Below, in pieces: positions 105 to 30,225 of a stretch of DNA of 30,225 nucleotides. The number at the start of each line of letters is the position of its first letter. Position 1 is the first letter of the stretch. A program made the translations under genes and the position numbers. The notes below the pieces were generated by a model. The model was given only the letters and a program-made list of their open reading frames with translations. It had not been told where the DNA came from and did not search any database. Source of the stretch: a virus (Duplodnaviria; Caudoviricetes); the IMG/VR virus record IMGVR_UViG_3300005764_000057, positions 1-30,225 of that record, one strand, 5' to 3'.

Positions 105-527
105 ATGGCTGCCGGTAAACATGGCTCCAGCGAAATAACCATCGCCTATGATGATGCATCCGGTGCCCCGCAAACCATTACCTGTGCGGTGCTGACCATG
201 GGCCCAATCAAGCTGACATCCGGGATGCAGACGGCCACGGCCTATTGCGATTCCATTGAAAAGCAATTGCCAACCGGGATGACAAAGATTGAACAGGTGA
301 CGTTGACCGGTTTCTGGGATACCACACCCACCACCGGCAGTCATGCCGTGTTCAAGGCCCCGGACACCAATCCGCAGGGCGCTACTCGCACCTTAACGGT
401 GATGTTCGGGGACGCGAAAACCTGGGCATCCGAAGGCTTCCAGATGTCGTATGCGGTGATTGGCAAGGTGGGCAGCCTGACGGAATTTGAAGCCGTTCTG
501 CAGCAGAACTCCGGAGCTTGGAGTTAG
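105..527 (+). CDS. Tail tube (major tail) protein, short paralog
   Basis: 140 aa, beta-rich, directly upstream of the tail chaperone. Motifs GKHGS, PTG, TLTGFWD and SY.V.GKVGSLT. AAGGA RBS-like sequence upstream. Confidence 0.75.
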   Translation: MAAGKHGSSEITIAYDDASGAPQTITCAVLTMGPIKLTSGMQTATAYCDSIEKQLPTGMTKIEQVTLTGFWDTTPTTGSHAVFKAPDTNPQGATRTLTVMFGDAKTWASEGFQMSYAVIGKVGSLTEFEAVLQQNSGAWS

Positions 528-1659: not shown

Positions 1660-3492
1660 ATGGCCGGTGAATCCCCATCCTTAGTCGTTAAAGTAGCCGC
1701 AAACCTGGAAGCGCTCCAGAAGAGCATGCAGGATATGCAGGCGGCTATCGGCCAGGCGGCGGAGAATTTCCGCAGCATGGGTGGCGAAGGATCCGCCGCC
1801 ATGAACCAGGTCACCACCGCCACCGAAACCGCCGGGGAATCCATGGGACTGCTGGAAAGCGCTATCGGTGGCTTCCTGGGTGCTATGTCCGTGGAGAAAG
1901 TGCTTCAATTCGGGGAAGCTATCATTGCGACTGGGGATAAACTGCAAAGTCTGCACGATAAGACGAATCTCAGCACCGATACATTACAGACACTCGGGGC
2001 GATAGCACATCAGCAAGGCTCCAGTCTGGATCAGATGGCCCAGGCGGCTGTTCATCTTGGACATAAGCTGGCCACCGATAGCGATAGCACCAAGCAGGCA
2101 GTCGAAGACCTTGGTTACAGCATGGATCAGATCTGGGCCATGACGCCGGATCAGCGGTTTCTCACCCTGGCCAAGGCGGTGGCAGATGTGGAGGATCCGC
2201 TCCGCCGTGATAAAGACGCCACGGAACTCTTTGGCCGCAGTGCATCGGAACTTCAGGGCACGTTTAGTGCCCTGAAGGAAGGTGGAGACGCCGTTGTCAA
2301 GATGACGGAAGACCAGATCGGCGGATTGTCCTTCCTGGCGTCGGCATGGACCAAATTTAAGGATTCCATCATTCCGGCCACCGTGCAGTTCATCGACGGG
2401 GCCACCCACGCCAGTCAGTTCTATGACGCCATGAAACTGTTGTTCGGCAAAGTGGAGGAAGGCCCGAAAGTCTATGGAGATGCCGGCGTCGCCCTGGATA
2501 AATACAACAACAGTGTCAAGGACTGGGTGAAACAGAACCAGCTGAAAGTCACCAGTCAGGAGCAGGCGTTTGCTGCAGACAGGGAATTCGCCAAGGCTCA
2601 GAAGGAGAAGGAAGAAGCCGCCAAACAGGAAGAGCGAGAGTTGACGGAACTGGCCCGGGCCTATGAGGAATATACCAAGTCCGTGGAAATGTTCCAGCGG
2701 TTTACGTTCGAAAACCAGAAGAAGGTAGACAAGGAACTGATTGACTCCGCAAAGAAACGGGCTGTGGAAGTCAACGCGGCCGTCAAGACCGAATTTGATG
2801 CGCAAGCCAAACTCAATGAAGCCTACGGACTTACCGCCACCGGTGGGATCAAGACCGTCACCAGTGCCTATGATACCTATCTGCAGAAGATGCACGATTT
2901 GAGCCTGGCCAAGAAAGATGGAATCAGCCAGACGGCCCAGGAAGCCCTGATTACCAAGGAATATACCGATACGCTGTATGCCCAGGCGGTGGCCACTGAT
3001 ACCGCCACCACGGCCTATAAGGCCCAAACCACCGCCATGCAGGAGCGGAACGCTCTGCCACCAGCTGGGGAACGGGCGGCCTATGGCGGGGCCACCGGCT
3101 CCATCGATATGAGTAAGATGACGCCGGAGAACACCGATCCGATGGTGCTCTGGTATCTCTCACAGGGTTATTCGCTGAATGAAGCCATGGCCCTGGCCGG
3201 CGGCTATGGCGGGTATGTGAATATCCGGGGGCCGAATGTTCGGATGTTTGCCAGCGGTGGAATCATTGGTGCCGGGGAGCCGGCCATTGTGGGCGAACGT
3301 GGCCCGGAAGTGTTCATCCCGAGCAGCCCCGGCACGATTGTTCCGAATGGCGGCGGGGCCGGGGCCGTCACGGTGGCGGTGACAGTCAACGGCTCCGTGC
3401 TGGGTGATCCGGATCGGATCGCCAAGGCGGTGAGCCAGGCGGTGATTAGCAATATGCGCATGCAGGGCCGGCGGCTCCCAACTGGCGTGTAG
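1660..3492 (+). CDS. Tape measure protein
   Basis: 610 aa, Ala/Gln/Lys-rich and helical. N-terminal LVVKVAAN, ELFGRS, C-terminal FASGG...IVGERGPEVFIP. Confidence 0.92.
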   Translation: MAGESPSLVVKVAANLEALQKSMQDMQAAIGQAAENFRSMGGEGSAAMNQVTTATETAGESMGLLESAIGGFLGAMSVEKVLQFGEAIIATGDKLQSLHDKTNLSTDTLQTLGAIAHQQGSSLDQMAQAAVHLGHKLATDSDSTKQAVEDLGYSMDQIWAMTPDQRFLTLAKAVADVEDPLRRDKDATELFGRSASELQGTFSALKEGGDAVVKMTEDQIGGLSFLASAWTKFKDSIIPATVQFIDGATHASQFYDAMKLLFGKVEEGPKVYGDAGVALDKYNNSVKDWVKQNQLKVTSQEQAFAADREFAKAQKEKEEAAKQEERELTELARAYEEYTKSVEMFQRFTFENQKKVDKELIDSAKKRAVEVNAAVKTEFDAQAKLNEAYGLTATGGIKTVTSAYDTYLQKMHDLSLAKKDGISQTAQEALITKEYTDTLYAQAVATDTATTAYKAQTTAMQERNALPPAGERAAYGGATGSIDMSKMTPENTDPMVLWYLSQGYSLNEAMALAGGYGGYVNIRGPNVRMFASGGIIGAGEPAIVGERGPEVFIPSSPGTIVPNGGGAGAVTVAVTVNGSVLGDPDRIAKAVSQAVISNMRMQGRRLPTGV

Positions 3493-3494
3493 CA

Positions 3495-6125
3495 ATGGCG
3501 ATTAGTGGCAGCCAGAAGGCCTATAAGTATGCTCTGAGTAACATCCTGCGCTCCGGGGCCAGCCGAAGCAACTATACATCCACGCAACTGTTCCTCTCCA
3601 TTGGTGGAGTGCAGGTTGGCTGTGGCAAGCCGTCCGGCTCCACGGCCAAGGTCCGGGATATCACTATTACCGATACCCTGAACGATGCGGCCAATACCGC
3701 CAGCTTCACCGCTGAAGGCTTCACCCCGACGGTTGGCCAGGATGTCATCTGGACATTCGGATCCATCAACAATTTAGATCGGCTGTTTGCCGGGGAAGTC
3801 CTGTCCGTCAATCAGACCTATGTCGGTTCGCCACTGCGGCCCATGTTTCAGGTGCGGTGTATCGACTGGACGTGGGGGCTCAACCGCCGGATTGTCACCG
3901 CCAAGTATCAGAATCAGACCATTGGCTTTATTGCCCAGAGTTTGCTGACTCAGTTTGCGCCTGGCTATACCTTGGCCCTGACCGATACCGCCTTCACCAA
4001 TACCATCCTGAATGAAATTTCGTTCACCAATCAGGATTTACCGGGCGCCCTTAGTCAGCTGGTGAAGCGGGGCGGCGGTTACTGGTATTGCGACTATGCC
4101 AAGGCGCTACACCTGTTCCAGACGGAATCCTCGCTCACTGCACCGGCGCCGTTGATTGGGACGCATACCACGTTGTTCTCGGTGGAGTTCAGTCAGGACC
4201 TGTCCCAGATGGCCACCCGGGCCTTGATTGAAGGCGGTGGCGCCACGGCTATGGCGGCGGTGCTGCCCGGGGATACGATTATCCCCGTCGATACCGCCGT
4301 CTGGTATGAGGATGCCGGCGGGGTGGTGGTGTCAGGCCCCCAGCGGATCACGTATACCGGCCGCCTGGCGGGTGGCGGCGGAACACTGGTAGGCCCAGGG
4401 GCCGCCCCCACGGCCACGATTGTGGCCACGGTCCAGAGCGGAAGCGGAGTCACAGCCGGGAGCCATGATTACGCTGTAACCTTCGTCACCGGCTCTGGGG
4501 AATCGCTGGCCGGGCCGAAAACCACGGCGGTAGTCGGACTGTTTCCACCGCCGATTACGGCCCTGGGACTCGTGAGTTATGGCGCCGGCACCGGGCCTGA
4601 TGTAGGCAGTCATACCTATGTGATGACGCATATCACGGCCAGCGGTGAAACGGTGGCCGGTCCCAGTGCCACCGCCACTACCTATACCACTCAGACCGTT
4701 CCCCCGAGTTTCGGGCCCAACGCCGGCAACCCAATCACCGGGGTGGGGATGGATGCCGGGACGTATTACTACGCGGTAAGTTTCGTCAATGCCTTCGGTG
4801 AAACCACCGCCGGGCCGCTTAGCAATCCGGTCACGATTATCGGCGGCGGGAATCCGAATAATATCGTTCCACTGAGCGGCATTCCCATTGGCTCGGCGGA
4901 AGTCACGGCCCGTAGAATCTACCGGCAACTGGGTCAGACGCCGAATCTGAAACTGCTGCAAACGCTCAATAACAATACCGCCACCACTTTTACTGACAGT
5001 TACTCCAATGCCACGTTGGGCGGAAGTCCGCCGGCTTCCAATACCGCCATCACACCATACCGGCAACCAAAATTCAGCTTACCACTCGGGCCGGCAGGCA
5101 CCACGGCCAGGGGTATTTACCGCTCCACCGCCAATACCACGGCGCCGCTGCTGCTCATTGGCTCAGTGAACAACAATACGGATACCCAATGGATTGACAC
5201 CACGGTAGATGCCAGTCTGCTCAGCACCCAGCCACCCGCGACTGGCACCGCTCTGGCCAATCAGGTGGGCATTTCGCAGATTCCCGCCGGTCCGGCCACC
5301 GTCACCCAGCGGAAACTCTATCGCACCGCCGCCGGTCAGACGCAGTTGAAACTCCTGGCCACCCTGGCGGATAACACCACCACTACGTATACCGATACAA
5401 CTGCGGACGGCAGTCTCGGCGCCAATGCTCCTGTTTCGGATAGCTCCGGGCTGAGTCAGCCCCAGGGGGCCGTGCTGGCCGGCAATACGTCCATCATCGT
5501 GGCCGGCGCCGGAGCGTTTCAGAACGGCGGCGGCTGGGCGGTGATTGGCAATGGCGAACAGGTGATCCGCTACACAGGGATCAGCGGGAATACGTTGACG
5601 GGAATTCCAGCCAGCGGGGTGGGCGCGATTACCGCCACCGTCAACTATAACTCCACCATTACCCAGGCCCCACAGATTACCGGCGTGCCGGCGTCCGGCA
5701 CCGGGGCAATTGTCTGGCAGCTGAAGCCCGGAGATTCAGTGGATCTGTTTATCACGGTGGATGACACGGCGGCCCAGAGTCTTCTGGCCAGTTACGTGGG
5801 CGGGGACGGAATCCAGGAGCAATACGACAGTGACAATCGCATATCGGCCGTAGAAGCCCGGGCCCGTGGCCAGGCCATCCTGGCCCTGCGGAATCATGTC
5901 TCCATCACCGTTTCCTATACCGTCCGGGACCAGAATACCCGCACCGGCAGGATGCAAGAAGTCAATCTACCGACACCCACCAACTTTTCTGGCAGTTTCA
6001 TCATCCAGGAAGTGACCATCAGTCAATTTGAGCCGGCCCTGCTGCCGGTGCGTTCCGTGCGGGCTTCAACGGAAATTTTCAGTTTGGAAAACTTAATCGT
6101 GCAAGCCAGAAGGGATCAGGGGTAA
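3495..6125 (+). CDS. Tail tip / baseplate hub protein (T4 gp27/Mu gp44-like fold) with inserted nested beta-sandwich domains
   Basis: Follows the tape measure gene. Hub-like pattern (RLFAGEV, QVRCIDW, GGYWYCD) at the N-terminus and hub-like residues at the C-terminus, with repeated Y.V.F...GE...GP and R.IYR motifs between them. Confidence 0.8.
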   Translation: MAISGSQKAYKYALSNILRSGASRSNYTSTQLFLSIGGVQVGCGKPSGSTAKVRDITITDTLNDAANTASFTAEGFTPTVGQDVIWTFGSINNLDRLFAGEVLSVNQTYVGSPLRPMFQVRCIDWTWGLNRRIVTAKYQNQTIGFIAQSLLTQFAPGYTLALTDTAFTNTILNEISFTNQDLPGALSQLVKRGGGYWYCDYAKALHLFQTESSLTAPAPLIGTHTTLFSVEFSQDLSQMATRALIEGGGATAMAAVLPGDTIIPVDTAVWYEDAGGVVVSGPQRITYTGRLAGGGGTLVGPGAAPTATIVATVQSGSGVTAGSHDYAVTFVTGSGESLAGPKTTAVVGLFPPPITALGLVSYGAGTGPDVGSHTYVMTHITASGETVAGPSATATTYTTQTVPPSFGPNAGNPITGVGMDAGTYYYAVSFVNAFGETTAGPLSNPVTIIGGGNPNNIVPLSGIPIGSAEVTARRIYRQLGQTPNLKLLQTLNNNTATTFTDSYSNATLGGSPPASNTAITPYRQPKFSLPLGPAGTTARGIYRSTANTTAPLLLIGSVNNNTDTQWIDTTVDASLLSTQPPATGTALANQVGISQIPAGPATVTQRKLYRTAAGQTQLKLLATLADNTTTTYTDTTADGSLGANAPVSDSSGLSQPQGAVLAGNTSIIVAGAGAFQNGGGWAVIGNGEQVIRYTGISGNTLTGIPASGVGAITATVNYNSTITQAPQITGVPASGTGAIVWQLKPGDSVDLFITVDDTAAQSLLASYVGGDGIQEQYDSDNRISAVEARARGQAILALRNHVSITVSYTVRDQNTRTGRMQEVNLPTPTNFSGSFIIQEVTISQFEPALLPVRSVRASTEIFSLENLIVQARRDQG

Positions 6126-6129
6126 GCCA

Positions 6130-6651
6130 ATGGCGATTGGGCGGACGGCAATGGTGGATGATGATGGCTCCGGCACCACCGGAACGGTTGTGAATAATGC
6201 TTGGAAACAGGAATTCTACGATCAAATTGATGCGGCCCTGGCTGGTACCACGATCTCTTCTGGCAATTGGACTCCCAGTTTGCAGGGCTCATCGGGTGGC
6301 AGTGCGACCTATACCGCCCAGCAGGGTTTTTATGTGAAGTCTGGCCGCAATGTCACGGGATGGTATCTCATCCAAGTGAATAGCAAAGGCACGTTGGCTG
6401 GTGATATCTCAGTGGCCGGGATACCGTTCAGTTACAGCAGCCCGGTGGGATTTTTTGCCGGTGGGAATGTGCAGTGGATTGGGCTGGCCACCACCTGGGT
6501 GACTATCTTTCCCGTTTTTTCCACTGCCACAGTTTTTGCCTTGCAAGGTGCAACGGCTGCGGGTGCCAGTGCGAATACGACTGTAAAAGCTACGGATTTG
6601 GCGAACGGGTGTTACTTTGTGGGCATGATTATCTATCCAACCACCAGCTAG
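6130..6651 (+). CDS. Small tail fibre / receptor-binding protein
   Basis: Last gene of the tail operon. DDDGSGTTGT N-terminus and a WTP...G.Y.K.GR.V pattern typical of phage fibre head domains. Confidence 0.65.
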   Translation: MAIGRTAMVDDDGSGTTGTVVNNAWKQEFYDQIDAALAGTTISSGNWTPSLQGSSGGSATYTAQQGFYVKSGRNVTGWYLIQVNSKGTLAGDISVAGIPFSYSSPVGFFAGGNVQWIGLATTWVTIFPVFSTATVFALQGATAAGASANTTVKATDLANGCYFVGMIIYPTTS

Positions 6652-16094: not shown

Positions 16095-16714
16095 GAGTCC
16101 TTATCGGCTGTGAATCCTCCGGGGTGGTGCGGGAAGCCTTCCGGGCCCGTGGCCATGATGCCTACAGCTGTGATCTGCTGCCGGCTGATGATCGGTCGCC
16201 GTGGCACATCCAGGATGATGTGATAAGCGTGATCAATGGCGGCCGGATCTGGGACCTGGCCATCTTCCATCCGCCCTGCACCAGGCTGGCTAACAGCGGC
16301 GTACTGCGGCTGTATCTGGAAGGCAAGGCCAGGAACGGGGTGGATGAAACGAAATGGCAGGACATGGAACAGGCCGCCGCATTCTTCCTGACACTCTGGC
16401 GTGCTCCGATTGATAAGGTGGCAATTGAAAATCCGATTCTGCATGGCTATGCCATCCGCATTCTTGGCGTCCAGCCGCATCAGATCATCCAGCCCTATGA
16501 TTATGGCCACCCGGAAAGCAAAGCTACCTGTCTGTGGCTGAAGAATCTGCCACCGCTGTGGCCAACGAAGATTCTGCCACTGCCGTCCCGTGGTTACTGG
16601 GACAATCAGACGGCTTCCGGGCAGAACAGATTATCTCCGAGTCCGGATCGGTGGAAGAAGCGGGCCAGAACGTATGAAGGAATCGCAACTGCCATGGCGG
16701 AGCAATGGACATGA
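16091..16714 (+). CDS. Phage-type short DNA cytosine-C5 methyltransferase
   Basis: Start re-assigned to 16091. VLIGCESSG (motif I-like), FHPPC (catalytic PC), IENP, K.TCLW and AMAEQW. Confidence 0.8.
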   Translation: MRVLIGCESSGVVREAFRARGHDAYSCDLLPADDRSPWHIQDDVISVINGGRIWDLAIFHPPCTRLANSGVLRLYLEGKARNGVDETKWQDMEQAAAFFLTLWRAPIDKVAIENPILHGYAIRILGVQPHQIIQPYDYGHPESKATCLWLKNLPPLWPTKILPLPSRGYWDNQTASGQNRLSPSPDRWKKRARTYEGIATAMAEQWT

Positions 16715-18045
16715 CTACACAGGAACAGATTGCACTGTGCGATACCGCGATCCACGCCAATATGCTGCTCCGGGCATCACTCTCCGGCGTGCCACCGTCT
16801 GACGTCATCCACGTCAGGGCCGGGGAGTCCATCCAGGCGGCCATGGACTCAGCACCGGATGGAGCCACCATCAGTATCGAGCCGGCCACCTATGATGAAG
16901 CCCTGACCGTCAGGAAGTCCGTGCAGCTGACGGCGTCTACGCCACTGCGCCATGGCCGCGCCGGACGCAATGCCAGTGTCTGGCTGACCAGCCGCGCCGA
17001 AGCCACCATCCTGGTGACCGGGGCCGGTATCACCATCGCGGGACTTGGCATCACCAACCAGGAGCAGAGCTATGACGCCGTGGACATCTACGGGAGCCGC
17101 GTCCTGTTCGACCGGTGCAGCGTGGTCGGCAGCCCGGACCATGGGATGCGGCGCGGCTGGCTGACCCACGGAGACACCATCAAGATTACCGGGTGCCATG
17201 CCGATGATGTCTGGAACATGGGCCGTGATACCTGTGTGGTCGGCGGCTGGGAAGGTGGCAGCAACATCCTGGTGGATGATTGCTTCCTGTGCGGCGGAGC
17301 GGAAACCATTCTCTACGGCGGGGCCGATTGTTCCAGCCCTGAGAAGATTCCGCATCACATCACCATCACCCATAGCACACTCACCCATAACCCTGACTGG
17401 TATGCACGGGGTATCGACATCAAGACACCCTTTGAACTCAAATGCTGCCAACATGTCTACATGGCTGACTGCCTGCTGGAATGGGCTGGCGTGGCCGGCG
17501 GCCAGGGCGCGTATCTGCTGCTGCTGACGGTCCGCAACCAGGACGGAAATGCACGATGGGCCACCATCACTGATATCCTGATTGAACGATGCCATTTTCG
17601 CCACGGCGGCGGCGGAATCAATTTCCTTGGTTATGACGATACCTATGAATCCGGGCCACTGGCCAACGTCACCATCAATAATTGCGCCTTTACCGGCATG
17701 AATCCAGCCGGACCATGGTCCGAAGCCAGCGGCTATTACGGCTCTGGCCGCTGTACGATGTTTAACAATCAGGGCGAAGGCATCACCCTGGACGCCATCA
17801 CCATGGACGGTCAGAACATGGGAGCCTTGGCCAACTTCGCCAATACGCCCAAGCAGCCGATAGGCTTGATACTTCGCAACTGGAAATACTGCCAGACCGA
17901 ATACGGCTGGAAGATTGACGATGGCGGAATGGATGTTCCGCCGGCTCATACCAATATTTCCGCTCTGATGCCGGACATGATCTATGAAGTCACCGCCAAT
18001 GATCCCGGAGCCGTGGGTTATCCGGAAAGCGGACACCATCGTTAA
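16711..18045 (+). CDS. Right-handed parallel beta-helix (pectin-lyase-like) protein
   Basis: SIQAAMDSA.DG.TI.I.P.TY.E cap, followed by repeated NILVDDC / HITITHS / DILIERC / NVTINNC rungs. Confidence 0.8.
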   Translation: MTTQEQIALCDTAIHANMLLRASLSGVPPSDVIHVRAGESIQAAMDSAPDGATISIEPATYDEALTVRKSVQLTASTPLRHGRAGRNASVWLTSRAEATILVTGAGITIAGLGITNQEQSYDAVDIYGSRVLFDRCSVVGSPDHGMRRGWLTHGDTIKITGCHADDVWNMGRDTCVVGGWEGGSNILVDDCFLCGGAETILYGGADCSSPEKIPHHITITHSTLTHNPDWYARGIDIKTPFELKCCQHVYMADCLLEWAGVAGGQGAYLLLLTVRNQDGNARWATITDILIERCHFRHGGGGINFLGYDDTYESGPLANVTINNCAFTGMNPAGPWSEASGYYGSGRCTMFNNQGEGITLDAITMDGQNMGALANFANTPKQPIGLILRNWKYCQTEYGWKIDDGGMDVPPAHTNISALMPDMIYEVTANDPGAVGYPESGHHR

Positions 18046-22748: not shown

Positions 22749-22802
22749 GAAAAAAATGTTTTCACACACTACCCGGGGCCCGGCCGTATGCTCACTGGCC
22801 AA

Positions 22803-24689
22803 ATGGTCCACCGGGCGTATTCGGTCCTGATTGTCAAGTCCTTCGAAGAATCCGAACGCATCATCGAAGGAATCGCCACCACGCCAGCCATAGACCGGGC
22901 CGGGGATATTCTGGAACCGGACGGGGCCGAATTCAGCCTGCCCATCCCGCTGCTGTGGCAGCATGACCACCGCCAGCCCATCGGGGAAGTGACTCACGCC
23001 AAGGTGACGCCGGATGGAATTCAGATCCGGGCGAAGCTGGCGCGGGTGGATACGCCCGGGGCCCTGCAGTCCAGGTTGGATGAAGCCTACCAGTCGGTCA
23101 AGGCCGGACTGGTGCGCGGATTGTCGGTTGGTCTGAAGCCGCTGGAAGTCAAACCCATCAAGGGCGGCTACGGACTGCAAATCCTCAGATGGCTCTGGGC
23201 GGAGTTAAGCGCGGTGACGATTCCGCAGAACATCCAGGCCACCATCCACAGTGTCAAATCGGCCGATATTGGCCTTTACCCGGCCCTTACTGGGCCTGTA
23301 TCCCTGCACTACGAAGGTCCACCCATGACCATCAGCGAACAGGTCAAAGCATGTGAGAACACCCGGGCCGCCAAAGTGGCCCGTATGACGGAGCTTCTCA
23401 CTAAGGCCGGTGATAACAATCAAACCTTGGAAGGCACCACTGAAGCCACCGAATACGATTCCCTCTCGGACCAGGTCAAAGGCTTGGATAAGGATCTGGT
23501 GCGGCTGCATGGCCTGGAAGAGATCAACAAAGCCGCAGCAGTCACCGTGGTTCCGGTGACAACGTCCAGAGCCGCCGGAGAACTCCGGGCCGGTAATCCG
23601 ATTACCGTCAAATCAAACCTGCCACCGGGCACGGCATTCGTTCGTTACTGCCAGGCCAAAGCGTTTGGCCGTGGCGATTCCATGCGGGAACTGGCGTTCG
23701 CGCAGCAATGGAAGGATTCCACGCCGGAAGTGGAACTGATGCTGAAGCCGGAAACAGAACTGCTGGTCAAAGCCGCCGTAGCGGCCGGCACCACCAGCGA
23801 TGCCGTATGGGCCGGGCCGCTGGCCCCGATCAAACCGCTGGCCGATGAATTCCTGGCGTTACTGCGGCCGGCCACCATCCTGGGGAAGATTCCAAATTTT
23901 AAACGAGTCCCGTTCAACATCAGTGTGCCGATTCAAACCGGGGGCGGGACGTATAAATGGGTGGCGCAGAACGTCCCCAAGCCGGTAGGTTCGCTGGCTT
24001 TCAATACCTTGACGCTGGGCATTACCAAATGTGCCGGCATTATCGTTATTACGGACGAATTGGCGAAGAATTCCAGTCCATCGGCGGAAGCGGTGATCCG
24101 TGCCGACATGATTGCTGGTATCGCGGCCTTCCTGGACGTGGAATTTACCGATCCGTCCAAAGCCCCGGCTACCGGCGTTCCTGGTTCGATTACCAACGGC
24201 GTTACGCCCATCACCACCGCTGGCACCACGCCGGCCAATGCACGAACCGACATCCAGGCGCTTATCAACGCCATGACAGCCACCGGGATCAGCACCGTTG
24301 GCGCAGCCTTGATCATGTCGGAGACAAACGCGGCGGCCCTTGGTTCAGCCTTGAACGCGCTTGGCCAGCCGCTGTTCGGTGATTTGACGGTTAGTGGTGG
24401 CACTGCGATGGGGATTAAGGTCTTCCCGTCGCAGTCGGCCGGGAACAACGTGATTCTGGTGCAGCCGTCAACGGTGCTGTATGCGGATGACGGTGGAGTC
24501 ACCATCGACGTATCGACGGAAGCCAGTGTGCAAATGGATAATGCGCCGATGTCACCGCCGGATGCCACGGTAGTGATGACTTCGCTGTGGCAGAACAATC
24601 TAGTCGGACTAAGGGCAGAAAGATATATCAACTGGAAACGCGGCCGAACCGGTGGCGTGCAATACACCGTGGCCACTTACTCGGCTTAA
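22803..24689 (+). CDS. Fused HK97-type prohead protease + major capsid protein
   Basis: HRAYS, IEGIATT, LLWQHDH..PIG, GLSVG and ELSAVTIP (protease), then a coiled-coil delta domain and HK97 capsid motifs (WVAQ..PKP, SLWQNNLVGLRAERYINW). Alternative start at 22788. Confidence 0.93.
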   Translation: MVHRAYSVLIVKSFEESERIIEGIATTPAIDRAGDILEPDGAEFSLPIPLLWQHDHRQPIGEVTHAKVTPDGIQIRAKLARVDTPGALQSRLDEAYQSVKAGLVRGLSVGLKPLEVKPIKGGYGLQILRWLWAELSAVTIPQNIQATIHSVKSADIGLYPALTGPVSLHYEGPPMTISEQVKACENTRAAKVARMTELLTKAGDNNQTLEGTTEATEYDSLSDQVKGLDKDLVRLHGLEEINKAAAVTVVPVTTSRAAGELRAGNPITVKSNLPPGTAFVRYCQAKAFGRGDSMRELAFAQQWKDSTPEVELMLKPETELLVKAAVAAGTTSDAVWAGPLAPIKPLADEFLALLRPATILGKIPNFKRVPFNISVPIQTGGGTYKWVAQNVPKPVGSLAFNTLTLGITKCAGIIVITDELAKNSSPSAEAVIRADMIAGIAAFLDVEFTDPSKAPATGVPGSITNGVTPITTAGTTPANARTDIQALINAMTATGISTVGAALIMSETNAAALGSALNALGQPLFGDLTVSGGTAMGIKVFPSQSAGNNVILVQPSTVLYADDGGVTIDVSTEASVQMDNAPMSPPDATVVMTSLWQNNLVGLRAERYINWKRGRTGGVQYTVATYSA

Positions 24690-24692
24690 GCC

Positions 24693-25088
24693 ATGGCACC
24701 AGGAATGGAACAATGGCAGGTTGACGGTAAGGCAGTGACAGCCGTAGATGTCACCGCCACCATTTACCACACCATCGATCATGCGGTAGCGCATAACGAA
24801 GGCGATACCTACACGGTGGATGATTACAACCTGGCGATGACGCTCTATGGAATCGGGTTTGTGGATATCACGGGAACGGTGACCAGCGTCACCGTTCCTA
24901 ACGTAGTCGGTCAGACCCAGGCGGCGGCGGAATCGGCGATTACGGCGGCCGGTTTGACAGTAGGCGCAGTGACATCAGCACCGGATGCCGTGGTGCCGGC
25001 AGGGTCCGTGATCAGCCAGACACCGACAGCCGGAGCCGCCGCATCCTCTGGCACCGCCGTGGACCTGGTCGTATCGACGGGACCGTAA
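24693..25088 (+). CDS. Head-associated small protein with a C-terminal PASTA domain
   Basis: VTVPNVVGQTQAAAESAITAAGLTVG........VPAGSVISQTP.AG.......VDLVVSTGP is a canonical PASTA repeat. Confidence 0.85.
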   Translation: MAPGMEQWQVDGKAVTAVDVTATIYHTIDHAVAHNEGDTYTVDDYNLAMTLYGIGFVDITGTVTSVTVPNVVGQTQAAAESAITAAGLTVGAVTSAPDAVVPAGSVISQTPTAGAAASSGTAVDLVVSTGP

Positions 25089-29373: not shown

Positions 29374-29582
29374 AGGATGATGACGCAAAGCCGCCGGATC
29401 CGGCCGATGCCCTGGTCACCCCGCAGGGGATGCCGTGGCACCAGAAACGGGATGCGGACCGGACCTGTCCACGGTGCGGGGCATCGCCATCCAGGCGGGT
29501 AGCATCATCCGGCTTTGGCCATCCGCATGATGTGTGTGCCAACTGCGGCTTTGACTTTGAGGAATTCACATGCCAAGCGTAG
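29370..29582 (+). CDS. Small Zn-ribbon protein
   Basis: ATGA-coupled. CPRCGA and CANCG motifs. Confidence 0.65.
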   Translation: MKDDDAKPPDPADALVTPQGMPWHQKRDADRTCPRCGASPSRRVASSGFGHPHDVCANCGFDFEEFTCQA

Positions 29583-30225
29583 GCACCGGCAAGCATGGAT
29601 CGGCGGAATGGACAGTCTTTGTCGTTAACGGCTTCAACATGCTGACGGCCAAACCCAAGGCCGTGACCTGGAAACTGGCAAGCCAGATGGAACGCTCCGA
29701 TGGCCTGGGGGATCTGTTTGAAGCCGAAACCCCGACGGGACTGTCCAGGCTGACATTGACGCAAGCCGGGGCCTTCTGGGACACCACCGTCCAGGGCATT
29801 CACGACAAATTTAAGGTGCCAAGCACCGTGCCGTATACGGTGCTCCTGGGGCCGGCAGGCCAGGGGCCCGGGGCCTATGCCCTGACGATTCAGGGCGTGC
29901 TGACAGTGAGCTATGACGTGGTGAGCACCGTGGGCCAGCTGACAAAGGCCAACGTAGCCTATCAGGTGAATGGGCCGGCGGCGGAAGGCAATGTCCTGCA
30001 ACCCTACGCGGTAAAGTCTGCCGACTGGGACACGAAGACGGCCCCATGGGACAACGGCGCGGCCACCGCCCTGGGTGGCACTGCGTATCTGACCGTGGCG
30101 GCCATGGACGCTGGCGTCACATCCCTGGTGGTCACGGTGCTGCATTCAACCGACAATGTCACCTATACCACGGCGGGCACCTTTGCCACGGTGACTATCG
30201 CCCCGAACCAGCAGCAGATCCCAAT
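29570..30225 (+). CDS. Tail tube protein, long paralog with an extra C-terminal beta domain (runs off the window end, not in the ORF track)
   Basis: GAGGA RBS and a frame open to the end. MPSVGTGKHGSAEW...PTGL...AFWDTT...SYDVVSTVGQLT matches 105..527, then continues GGTAYL...VLHSTDNVTY. Confidence 0.8.
   Translation, partial: MPSVGTGKHGSAEWTVFVVNGFNMLTAKPKAVTWKLASQMERSDGLGDLFEAETPTGLSRLTLTQAGAFWDTTVQGIHDKFKVPSTVPYTVLLGPAGQGPGAYALTIQGVLTVSYDVVSTVGQLTKANVAYQVNGPAAEGNVLQPYAVKSADWDTKTAPWDNGAATALGGTAYLTVAAMDAGVTSLVVTVLHSTDNVTYTTAGTFATVTIAPNQQQIP

What the first reader, a model, noticed from the sequence alone, without database searches (positions are those of the whole stretch)
4240..5760. Russian-doll tail tip protein: domains nested inside copies of themselves
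Seen: three N-half motifs (HDYAVTFVTGSGESLAGP ~4461, HTYVMTHITASGETVAGP ~4608, YYYAVSFVNAFGETTAGP ~4761) come first. Three C-half motifs follow (ARRIYR..LKLL..LNNNTATTFTD ~4911, ARGIYR..LLLI..VNNNTDTQWID ~5106, QRKLYR..LKLL..LADNTTTTYTD ~5307). The order is AAABBB rather than ABABAB. A second domain type is nested the same way: VLPGDTIIPV..QRITYTG, then a complete VLAGNTSIIV..QVIRYTG..LTGIPASGVGAI, then the orphan half ITGVPASGTGAI. All of it lies inside the hub. Inference: repeated insertion of Fn3-like domains into the same loop builds an out-and-back rigid arm whose length can be tuned.
Basis: partly seen in the sequence, partly recalled or inferred. Interest (0 to 1): 0.8.

Follow-up and report, generated by a model that had tools for sequence, protein, structure and literature searches.

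The report
Self-nested, length-variable phage tail arm
A phage tail-tip protein carries one small domain inserted into copies of itself, three layers deep here and one to eight in relatives, predicted to form an out-and-back arm whose fast-changing tip likely helps the phage grip its host.

Summary
Confirmed. ORF 3495-6125 (876 aa), right after the tape measure gene of a temperate siphophage, is a Mu gp44-type baseplate hub with a ~495-aa insert ordered c-AAA-BBB-c-d-d. Nested pairs give 17-20 of the 40 top covariation couplings, against 0-3 for controls. In an arm model (pLDDT 94.5), 49 of 50 single-domain matches span nested ranges. Of 232 relatives with a bounded arm, 192 have equal A/B counts; 38 of the other 40 have an unassigned gap at the tip. 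Length steps by 117 aa per unit (n=1-7, r=0.998); one close pair differs by two matched indels flanking a shared tip. Identity falls from base (0.8) to tip (0.4). The unit best matches crAss001 muzzle IG1 (Z 9.4), Fn3 only partly. Likely an adhesion arm with a swappable tip (inferred); rigidity untested. Self-nesting is known (cyanobacterial RNA polymerase Si3), and this scan noted similar nests on other DNA; my ten paper searches found no such variable ladder in a hub.

The parts
3495..6125 (+). Whole gene: baseplate hub protein, 876 aa (P0001)
   Evidence: hub fold
3495..3584 (+). N-terminal extension, low confidence in the monomer model; possible fibre anchor (inferred by analogy only)
   Evidence: pLDDT 41-62 for residues 1-30
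3585..4250 (+). Hub core, N-terminal part (residues 31-252)
   Evidence: weak PF05954 in relatives
4251..4379 (+). c1: first half of the outer small barrel-like domain C1, which hosts the whole insert
4386..4538 (+). A1: first half of the base unit; pairs with B3
4539..4691 (+). A2: first half of the middle unit; pairs with B2
4692..4844 (+). A3: first half of the tip unit; contiguous with B1
4857..5045 (+). B1: second half of the tip unit (the most variable unit among relatives)
5052..5249 (+). B2: second half of the middle unit
5250..5444 (+). B3: second half of the base unit
5463..5669 (+). C2 (c2+d1): complete inner copy of the small C domain, sibling of the arm inside C1
5670..5735 (+). 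d2: second half of outer domain C1
5736..6122 (+). Hub core, C-terminal part (residues 748-876)
1660..3492 (+). Context: tape measure protein, directly upstream; no separate distal-tail gene in between
6130..6651 (+). Context: 173-aa gene with a conserved N-terminal motif and variable remainder; likely a fibre or receptor-binding protein (inferred)

Best explanation
The protein is a siphophage baseplate hub whose insert holds three copies of one Ig-like beta-sandwich nested as A1[A2[A3-B1]B2]B3, predicted to stack into an out-and-back arm that likely acts as an adjustable adhesion appendage with a swappable tip. Shown by calls: hub fold, nested pairing, matched gain and loss, a 117-residue ladder, and divergence rising from base to tip. 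Inferred: a trimeric hub, so three arms per virion; the tip binding host surface; and how length changes. Two routes fit the sequences. A whole A-B unit drops into the central A|B junction in one event, or recombination out of register in the A run and again in the B run swaps the inner cassette. Only balanced products would fold, so selection would keep the counts equal. The variable end lies in mid-gene between conserved flanks, like a tail fibre turned inside out.
For: Hub: Foldseek E 6e-12 to 3CDD, 4e-11 to Mu gp44 1WRU; follows the tape measure gene. Pairing: inter-half couplings among the top 40 are 20 for nested pairs, 17 without the tip, 18 for middle units only, against 0 parallel, 0 and 0 random, 1 and 3 off by one, 0 with partners from another protein. 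Models: pLDDT 91.2 whole, 94.5 with pTM 0.78 for the arm from three-unit relatives only; 49 of 50 structural matches span A3+B1 (22), A2+B2 (18) or A1+B3 (9). Matching: 192 of 232 equal; span = 116.7 n + 21, r = 0.998 on 139 gap-free proteins; P0108 versus P0045 (84% identical) differ by 49- and 65-residue indels flanking a shared tip. Lability: n = 4, 5 and 6 within one 34-protein cluster linked at 80% hub identity. Tip variability: at about 90% hub identity, unit identity falls from 0.80-0.82 at the base to 0.36-0.43 at the tip. Swappable site: some relatives carry a ~305-residue repeat insert instead of the arm, or nothing; 3 carry a LamG lectin domain elsewhere in the chain.
Against: No binding data; high tip variability also fits relaxed constraint. 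A separate fibre-like gene follows the hub in 36 of 81 other loci (2 of 31 aligned members carry a PF13884 fibre chaperone), so the arm need not be the main receptor binder. 40 of 232 relatives have unequal detected counts; reading 38 of them as a diverged tip half is inference from gap position and size, and 22 of 232 spans lie 0.25 step or more off the ladder. The within-protein similarity test is weak once the tip is removed (rho 0.24 against a random maximum of 0.21). Whole-protein pTM is only 0.61, so the arm's position on the hub is not fixed by the model. The recombination route was not tested on DNA.
Confidence: 0.62

Rival explanations
1. Same nested arm, but a scaffold: it docks or braces the downstream fibre protein or neighbouring subunits, and length sets geometry rather than presenting a binding tip.
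For: The related IG2 domain of the crAss001 muzzle is a platform for inserts (PMC10172136 passages); an out-and-back rope ending in an Ig-like domain docks fibre dimers in phage A1002 (PMC13730344 passages); basal units are well conserved.
Against: The fibre-like gene keeps one N-terminal motif whatever n is, and relatives with n = 0 exist, so its dock is more likely on the hub core; in HFTV1 the fibres attach to the hub N terminus (PMC12494034 passage). A dock should not be most variable at its tip.
Confidence: 0.15
2. The arm is a mechanical lever that relays receptor contact to hub opening, like the FNIII strings of the T5 central fibre.
For: T5 pb3/pb4 FNIII strings rearrange on receptor binding (PMC10038345 passages); a doubly anchored arm could transmit torque; arm pTM 0.78.
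Against: n runs from 0 to 9 units with branches, hard to square with fixed trigger geometry; the T5 strings are tandem and C-terminal.
Confidence: 0.1
3. Near-neutral accretion: the unit is a promiscuous inserting domain, balanced products survive because they fold, and length and tip sequence are not selected.
For: The contiguous unit turns up in many unrelated virion proteins and in a flagellar hook protein; at least 98 changes of n on a 238-tip hub tree.
Against: The insert is kept in most relatives, costs 350 bp per unit in a 30-kb genome, and shows a regular base-to-tip gradient.
Confidence: 0.1
4. No nesting: A and B halves are independent small domains, or pair in parallel (A1-B1, A2-B2, A3-B3).
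For: 40 of 232 relatives show unequal detected counts.
Against: A3+B1 matches single solved domains by sequence and structure.
Confidence: 0.03

Closest known systems
Si3 insertion of cyanobacterial RNA polymerase beta' (HABAS/SBHM domains inserted into HABAS domains)
   Same: One domain family recursively inserted into itself, up to six levels, with branching, forming an elongated appendage (PMC11515920, PMC13114784, PMC10895346; passages).
   Different: Other fold and other machine; Si3 is irregular and partly domain-swapped, with 8-10 domains. Here the order is a regular A^nB^n ladder whose n changes among relatives with 80-95% identical hubs.
Mu gp44 / MuSo2 3CDD (gp27-type) baseplate hubs; lambda gpJ, T5 pb3, evolved Tal proteins
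   Same: Hub fold and gene position; hubs are known to take inserts (OB domain in lambda HD IV, PMC13243795 section 13; CBM-like inserts in streptococcal Tals, PMC7533335 passages).
   Different: Known inserts are single domains or C-terminal tandem FNIII strings; none of the passages read describes self-nested repeats. No distal-tail gene lies between tape measure and hub here.
crAss001 muzzle IG1/IG2 (7QOK), SPO1 capsid Gp6.1 domain (9VEL), 8JOV chain A residues ~98-220
   Same: Fold of one A-B unit: Z 9.4 over 112 residues, rmsd 3.1, to exactly IG1; Z 9.2 to 9VEL; profile E 7e-8 to 8JOV_A. IG2 hosts inserts in its loops.
   Different: There the unit is contiguous or hosts an unrelated domain; it is not stacked inside copies of itself. 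That 8JOV is from podophage GP4 is recalled, not from a call.
Multi-domain phage tail sheath proteins
   Same: Extra Ig-like domains built from an outgoing and a returning chain segment, proposed to aid adhesion (PMC9230969 abstract and passages).
   Different: Sheath, not hub; the passages read do not show the added domains to be copies of one another in matched numbers.

Membership tests
gp27/Mu gp44-type baseplate hub | Hub fold (two tube-like barrels plus alpha/beta domains) | tested here: met
   Foldseek: 52 matches at E <= 0.001, top rows all hubs, 3CDD rmsd 3.6 over ~231 columns
gp27/Mu gp44-type baseplate hub | Gene downstream of the tape measure gene | tested here: met
   (tape-measure homolog directly upstream in 40 of 81 other loci)
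gp27/Mu gp44-type baseplate hub | Pfam PF05954 above cut-off | tested here: inconclusive
   No Pfam hit for P0001; relatives P0049, P0052 and P0169 pass
gp27/Mu gp44-type baseplate hub | Trimer closing the tail tube | not tested
   Inferred from the family
Fibronectin type III | Sequence family match | tested here: not met
   No fn3 Pfam hit for the protein, the tip unit or tandem relatives
Fibronectin type III | Seven-strand sandwich in canonical strand order | tested here: inconclusive
   Many Fn3 chains align only 62-75 residues at Z 3.2-4.0; a circular permutation would explain this but was not tested
crAss001 muzzle IG1-type Ig-like domain | Ig-like sandwich with altered strand order over the whole unit | tested here: met
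   Z 9.4, 112 aligned, chain range 162-291 = IG1; weak PF25731 leads
Si3-type recursive self-insertion (works like) | Homologous domain inserted into itself over several levels | tested here: met
Si3-type recursive self-insertion (works like) | Branching (one host with several inserts) | tested here: met
   P0093, P0110, P0149, P0255, L009-L011, P0269, P0270; sequence order only, not folded
Si3 proper (membership) | HABAS/SBHM fold within RNA polymerase beta' | tested here: not met
   Host is a phage hub and the unit is an Ig-like sandwich
Receptor-binding appendage | Binds the host surface; sets host range | not testable with these tools
   Only indirect: tip variability

The most novel reading that the evidence does not exclude
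A large family of uncultured temperate phages tunes reach and host binding with a bracket-grammar arm: one domain nests, branches or runs in tandem inside itself, units are gained and lost as matched pairs at two distant sites by cassette recombination, and the diversified tip sits in mid-gene. It would be a natural series in which recursive domain insertion can be watched among close relatives, and a template for length-programmable, doubly anchored protein rods.
Probability: 0.5. Interest if true: 0.78.

Novelty: new variant of a known kind. Interest (0 to 1): 0.64.

Why it matters
How nested domain architectures arise is mostly inferred from old, fixed cases such as RNA polymerase Si3. Here near-identical hubs differ in nesting depth, and one pair shows the two matched indels directly, so the routes (tip insertion, double crossover, stepwise duplication) become testable. 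For phage biology it suggests a host-recognition module whose variable end lies in mid-gene, on phages whose relatives are prophages of poorly studied Acidobacteriota. For annotation it explains why Pfam sees nothing here. It also offers a modular rod for protein design.

Tried and rejected
Parallel, off-by-one and shuffled pairings: no coupling signal. Pfam on P0001: nothing; phmmer against solved chains: nothing, only the profile found 8JOV and 9VEL. Foldseek on the arm: no match at E <= 0.001. DNA repeats in 4200-5800 are old (one 31-nt family at 71%; the rest look like chance), so no recent duplication or recombination site is visible in this genome. Complex prediction of the hub with three copies of the downstream protein's first 41 residues: no answer, score 0.02; no evidence either way. 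HFTV1 hub (rank 2): the passages read describe no nesting. No solved relative of the downstream gene family. The head-closure insert is unrelated to the unit. Paper searches; none listed a paper on this hub family or an A^nB^n ladder in a hub. Subscription journals are not in the library, the GP4 structure paper was not read, and no supplements were opened, so a mention there cannot be excluded. The result (extra unit placed at the same depth from A and from B halves in 149 of 173 pairs, about 44 expected; 142 at the tip) is biased by tip divergence and non-independent pairs, so I give it little weight. No model coordinates were available, so contacts and arm length were not measured directly.

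Full report
Setting. The window is a 30,225-base virus record, 96% complete by CheckV: terminase, capsid, portal, connectors, integrase and tape measure are recognisable. The finding lies in ORF 3495-6125 (876 aa, P0001), which follows the tape measure gene directly. It has no Pfam hit; PHROGs matches only residues 385-513.

Observation. Every motif is present within 3 nt of the stated place. Profiles seeded from the query's halves and iterated on relatives give c A A A B B B c d d, between an N-terminal and a C-terminal hub part.

Host protein. AlphaFold2 on a 99-sequence alignment gave pLDDT 91.2 and pTM 0.61. Foldseek returned baseplate hubs: 3CDD at E 6e-12, Mu gp44 1WRU at 4e-11. The insert replaces the turn between strands 242-252 and 748-756.

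Relatives. Three searches listed 120 of 617 hits, 34 of 34 and 150 of 1,630; the last two used the hub N-terminus alone, so they are not biased toward arms. Together they gave 265 distinct proteins including the query. 232 have two c halves bounding the arm; the 33 dropped are fragments, arm-less forms or lack the inner C domain. 192 of 232 have equal A and B counts, all in balanced bracket order. The other 40 differ by one; 38 have an unassigned gap of 50 residues or more at the A|B junction, where a diverged tip half would lie (inference). In 139 gap-free proteins the span is 116.7 n + 21 residues for n = 1 to 7, r = 0.998; 210 of all 232 lie within a quarter step of the ladder. In 77 locus ORFs, 64 are equal and 13 differ by one. 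Forms with no arm exist: a bare single C domain (P0240, P0260) and about eight with a ~305-residue repeat insert instead. Branched and tandem-in-shell forms exist too: P0093, P0110, P0149 (nine units, eight deep), P0255, L009-L011, P0269 and P0270 with a run of tandem units inside a shell, and P0272 with eight A and eight B. In unrelated proteins the unit is mostly contiguous, A-B or A-B-A-B.

Pairing. Mean-field covariation on 574 half pairs from 140 clean proteins put 20 inter-half couplings in the top 40 for nested pairs, and none for parallel or two random pairings. The signal stays when the contiguous tip is removed (17 of 40) and for middle units only (18 of 40). It goes with off-by-one pairing (1 and 3) and with depth-matched partners from other proteins (0). 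The within-protein similarity test agrees but is weaker without the tip: rho 0.63 against 0.02, then 0.24 against 0.05, random maximum 0.21. The arm alone, folded from 55 three-unit sequences whose register is the same under either hypothesis, gave pLDDT 94.5 and pTM 0.78. No coordinates are returned, but the structural search reports model ranges: of 50 rows, 22 span A3+B1, 18 span A2+B2, 9 span A1+B3, 1 fits none, and none spans A1+B1 or A3+B3. For the C domains the same top coupling appears in c1-d2 and c2-d1 (z 6.5, 6.9) and not among the top couplings of the controls; 10 and 12 of the top 20 are inter-half against 5, 6 and 1, so this nest is supported less sharply. The arm and C2 are siblings within C1.

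Fold. The unit matches crAss001 muzzle residues 162-291 (Z 9.4, 112 aligned, rmsd 3.1), which the paper names IG1, an Ig-like fold with a different strand order (PMC10172136 passages), and SPO1 capsid Gp6.1 (Z 9.2); a latrotoxin domain follows at Z 7.8. A profile also finds 8JOV chain A (E 7e-8). Fn3 chains align only 62-75 residues at Z 4.0 or less. The order of motifs suggests a permuted Fn3-like sandwich (my reading, untested). C is a small unnamed domain common in phage proteins.

Dynamics. One cluster of 34 proteins linked at 80% hub identity holds n = 4, 5 and 6. n, inferred from span, changes at least 98 times on a 238-tip hub tree (shuffled mean 146). P0108 and P0045 are 84% identical and differ by a 49-residue A half and a 65-residue B half that flank a shared tip; P0097 against P0071 shows a single central block instead. 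At about 90% hub identity, unit identity falls from 0.80-0.82 at the base to 0.36-0.43 at the tip. DNA repeats in this genome are old.

Context. A tape-measure homolog lies directly upstream in 40 of 81 other loci, and a homolog of 6130-6651 directly downstream in 36 of 81; many loci are cut short. Two of 31 aligned downstream proteins carry a fibre chaperone domain. Near-full-length relatives lie on 0.1-5.4 Mb contigs titled Vicinamibacterales or Acidobacteriota (L003, L008-L011) and on shorter contigs titled Polyangia and Pseudomonadota. The host of this phage is not shown.

Mechanism. Shown by sequence and prediction: a hub with a self-nested insert that changes length in whole units. Inferred: three arms per trimeric hub, each anchored twice through C1, with a variable tip that contacts the host surface, probably as an accessory adhesin beside the small fibre. 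Length would change by a unit dropping into the central junction or by out-of-register recombination in both runs; unbalanced products would leave a half-sandwich and be lost. I put this at 0.62, against scaffold 0.15, lever 0.10, neutral accretion 0.10 and no nesting 0.03.

Comparison. Recursive insertion of a domain into its own kind is known from cyanobacterial RNA polymerase Si3 (passages of PMC11515920, PMC13114784, PMC10895346). Out-and-back Ig-like domains are described for tail sheaths (PMC9230969), and hubs take inserts (PMC13243795 section 13, PMC7533335 passages, PMC10038345 passages). The protein is a hub by fold, works like Si3 in architecture, and is neither Si3 nor shown to be Fn3. 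Ten searches listed no paper on this family; subscription papers and supplements were not seen. Unchecked notes of this scan report similar nests on other DNA; I had reached the nesting result and the Si3 precedent before reading them.

Verdict. Real, well supported, a new variant of a known kind. Interest 0.64.

Noticed in passing
L041:1-2247: Tandem A-B-A-B units sit inside a flagellar hook protein (FlgE D1 and D2 Pfam hits) on a contig titled Granulosicoccus; an Atlas cluster of Planctomycetota FlgE also aligns with the unit.
   Followed up: partly
P0123, P0169, P0171, P0195, P0199, P0214, P0219, P0239 (relatives): The arm and C2 are replaced by a ~305-residue repeat insert that looks like a beta-propeller by eye; these forms are scattered on the hub tree next to arm-bearing ones.
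   Followed up: partly
P0241 (relative): The C domain itself is repeated three times in tandem inside its outer copy.
   Followed up: no
window 1660-3495: No distal-tail (Dit) gene between tape measure and hub, and none recognised elsewhere by Pfam or PHROGs; a neck-1-like gene precedes the tape measure.
   Followed up: partly
window 105-527 and 29570-30223: Two tail-tube-like ORFs by eye (similar N-termini), one cut by the end of the record; either might stand in for Dit.
   Followed up: no
window 22788-25088: Protease-capsid fusion upstream of the portal, with a small PASTA-domain gene (24693-25088) between them.
   Followed up: no
window 16705-18045: 446-aa right-handed beta-helix protein among replication genes.
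   Followed up: no
L009:7923-10875, L065, L109: Hub relatives split into two ORFs (frameshift or stop); assembly error or decay not resolved.
   Followed up: no
L044:3-19619: A 6,539-aa ORF on a contig titled Nitrospirota with over 30 B-like repeats at ~115-residue spacing and no detected A halves; probably another repeat family.
   Followed up: no
L019, L020, L026: Nested A-A..B-B-like order in unrelated large proteins outside this hub family.
   Followed up: no
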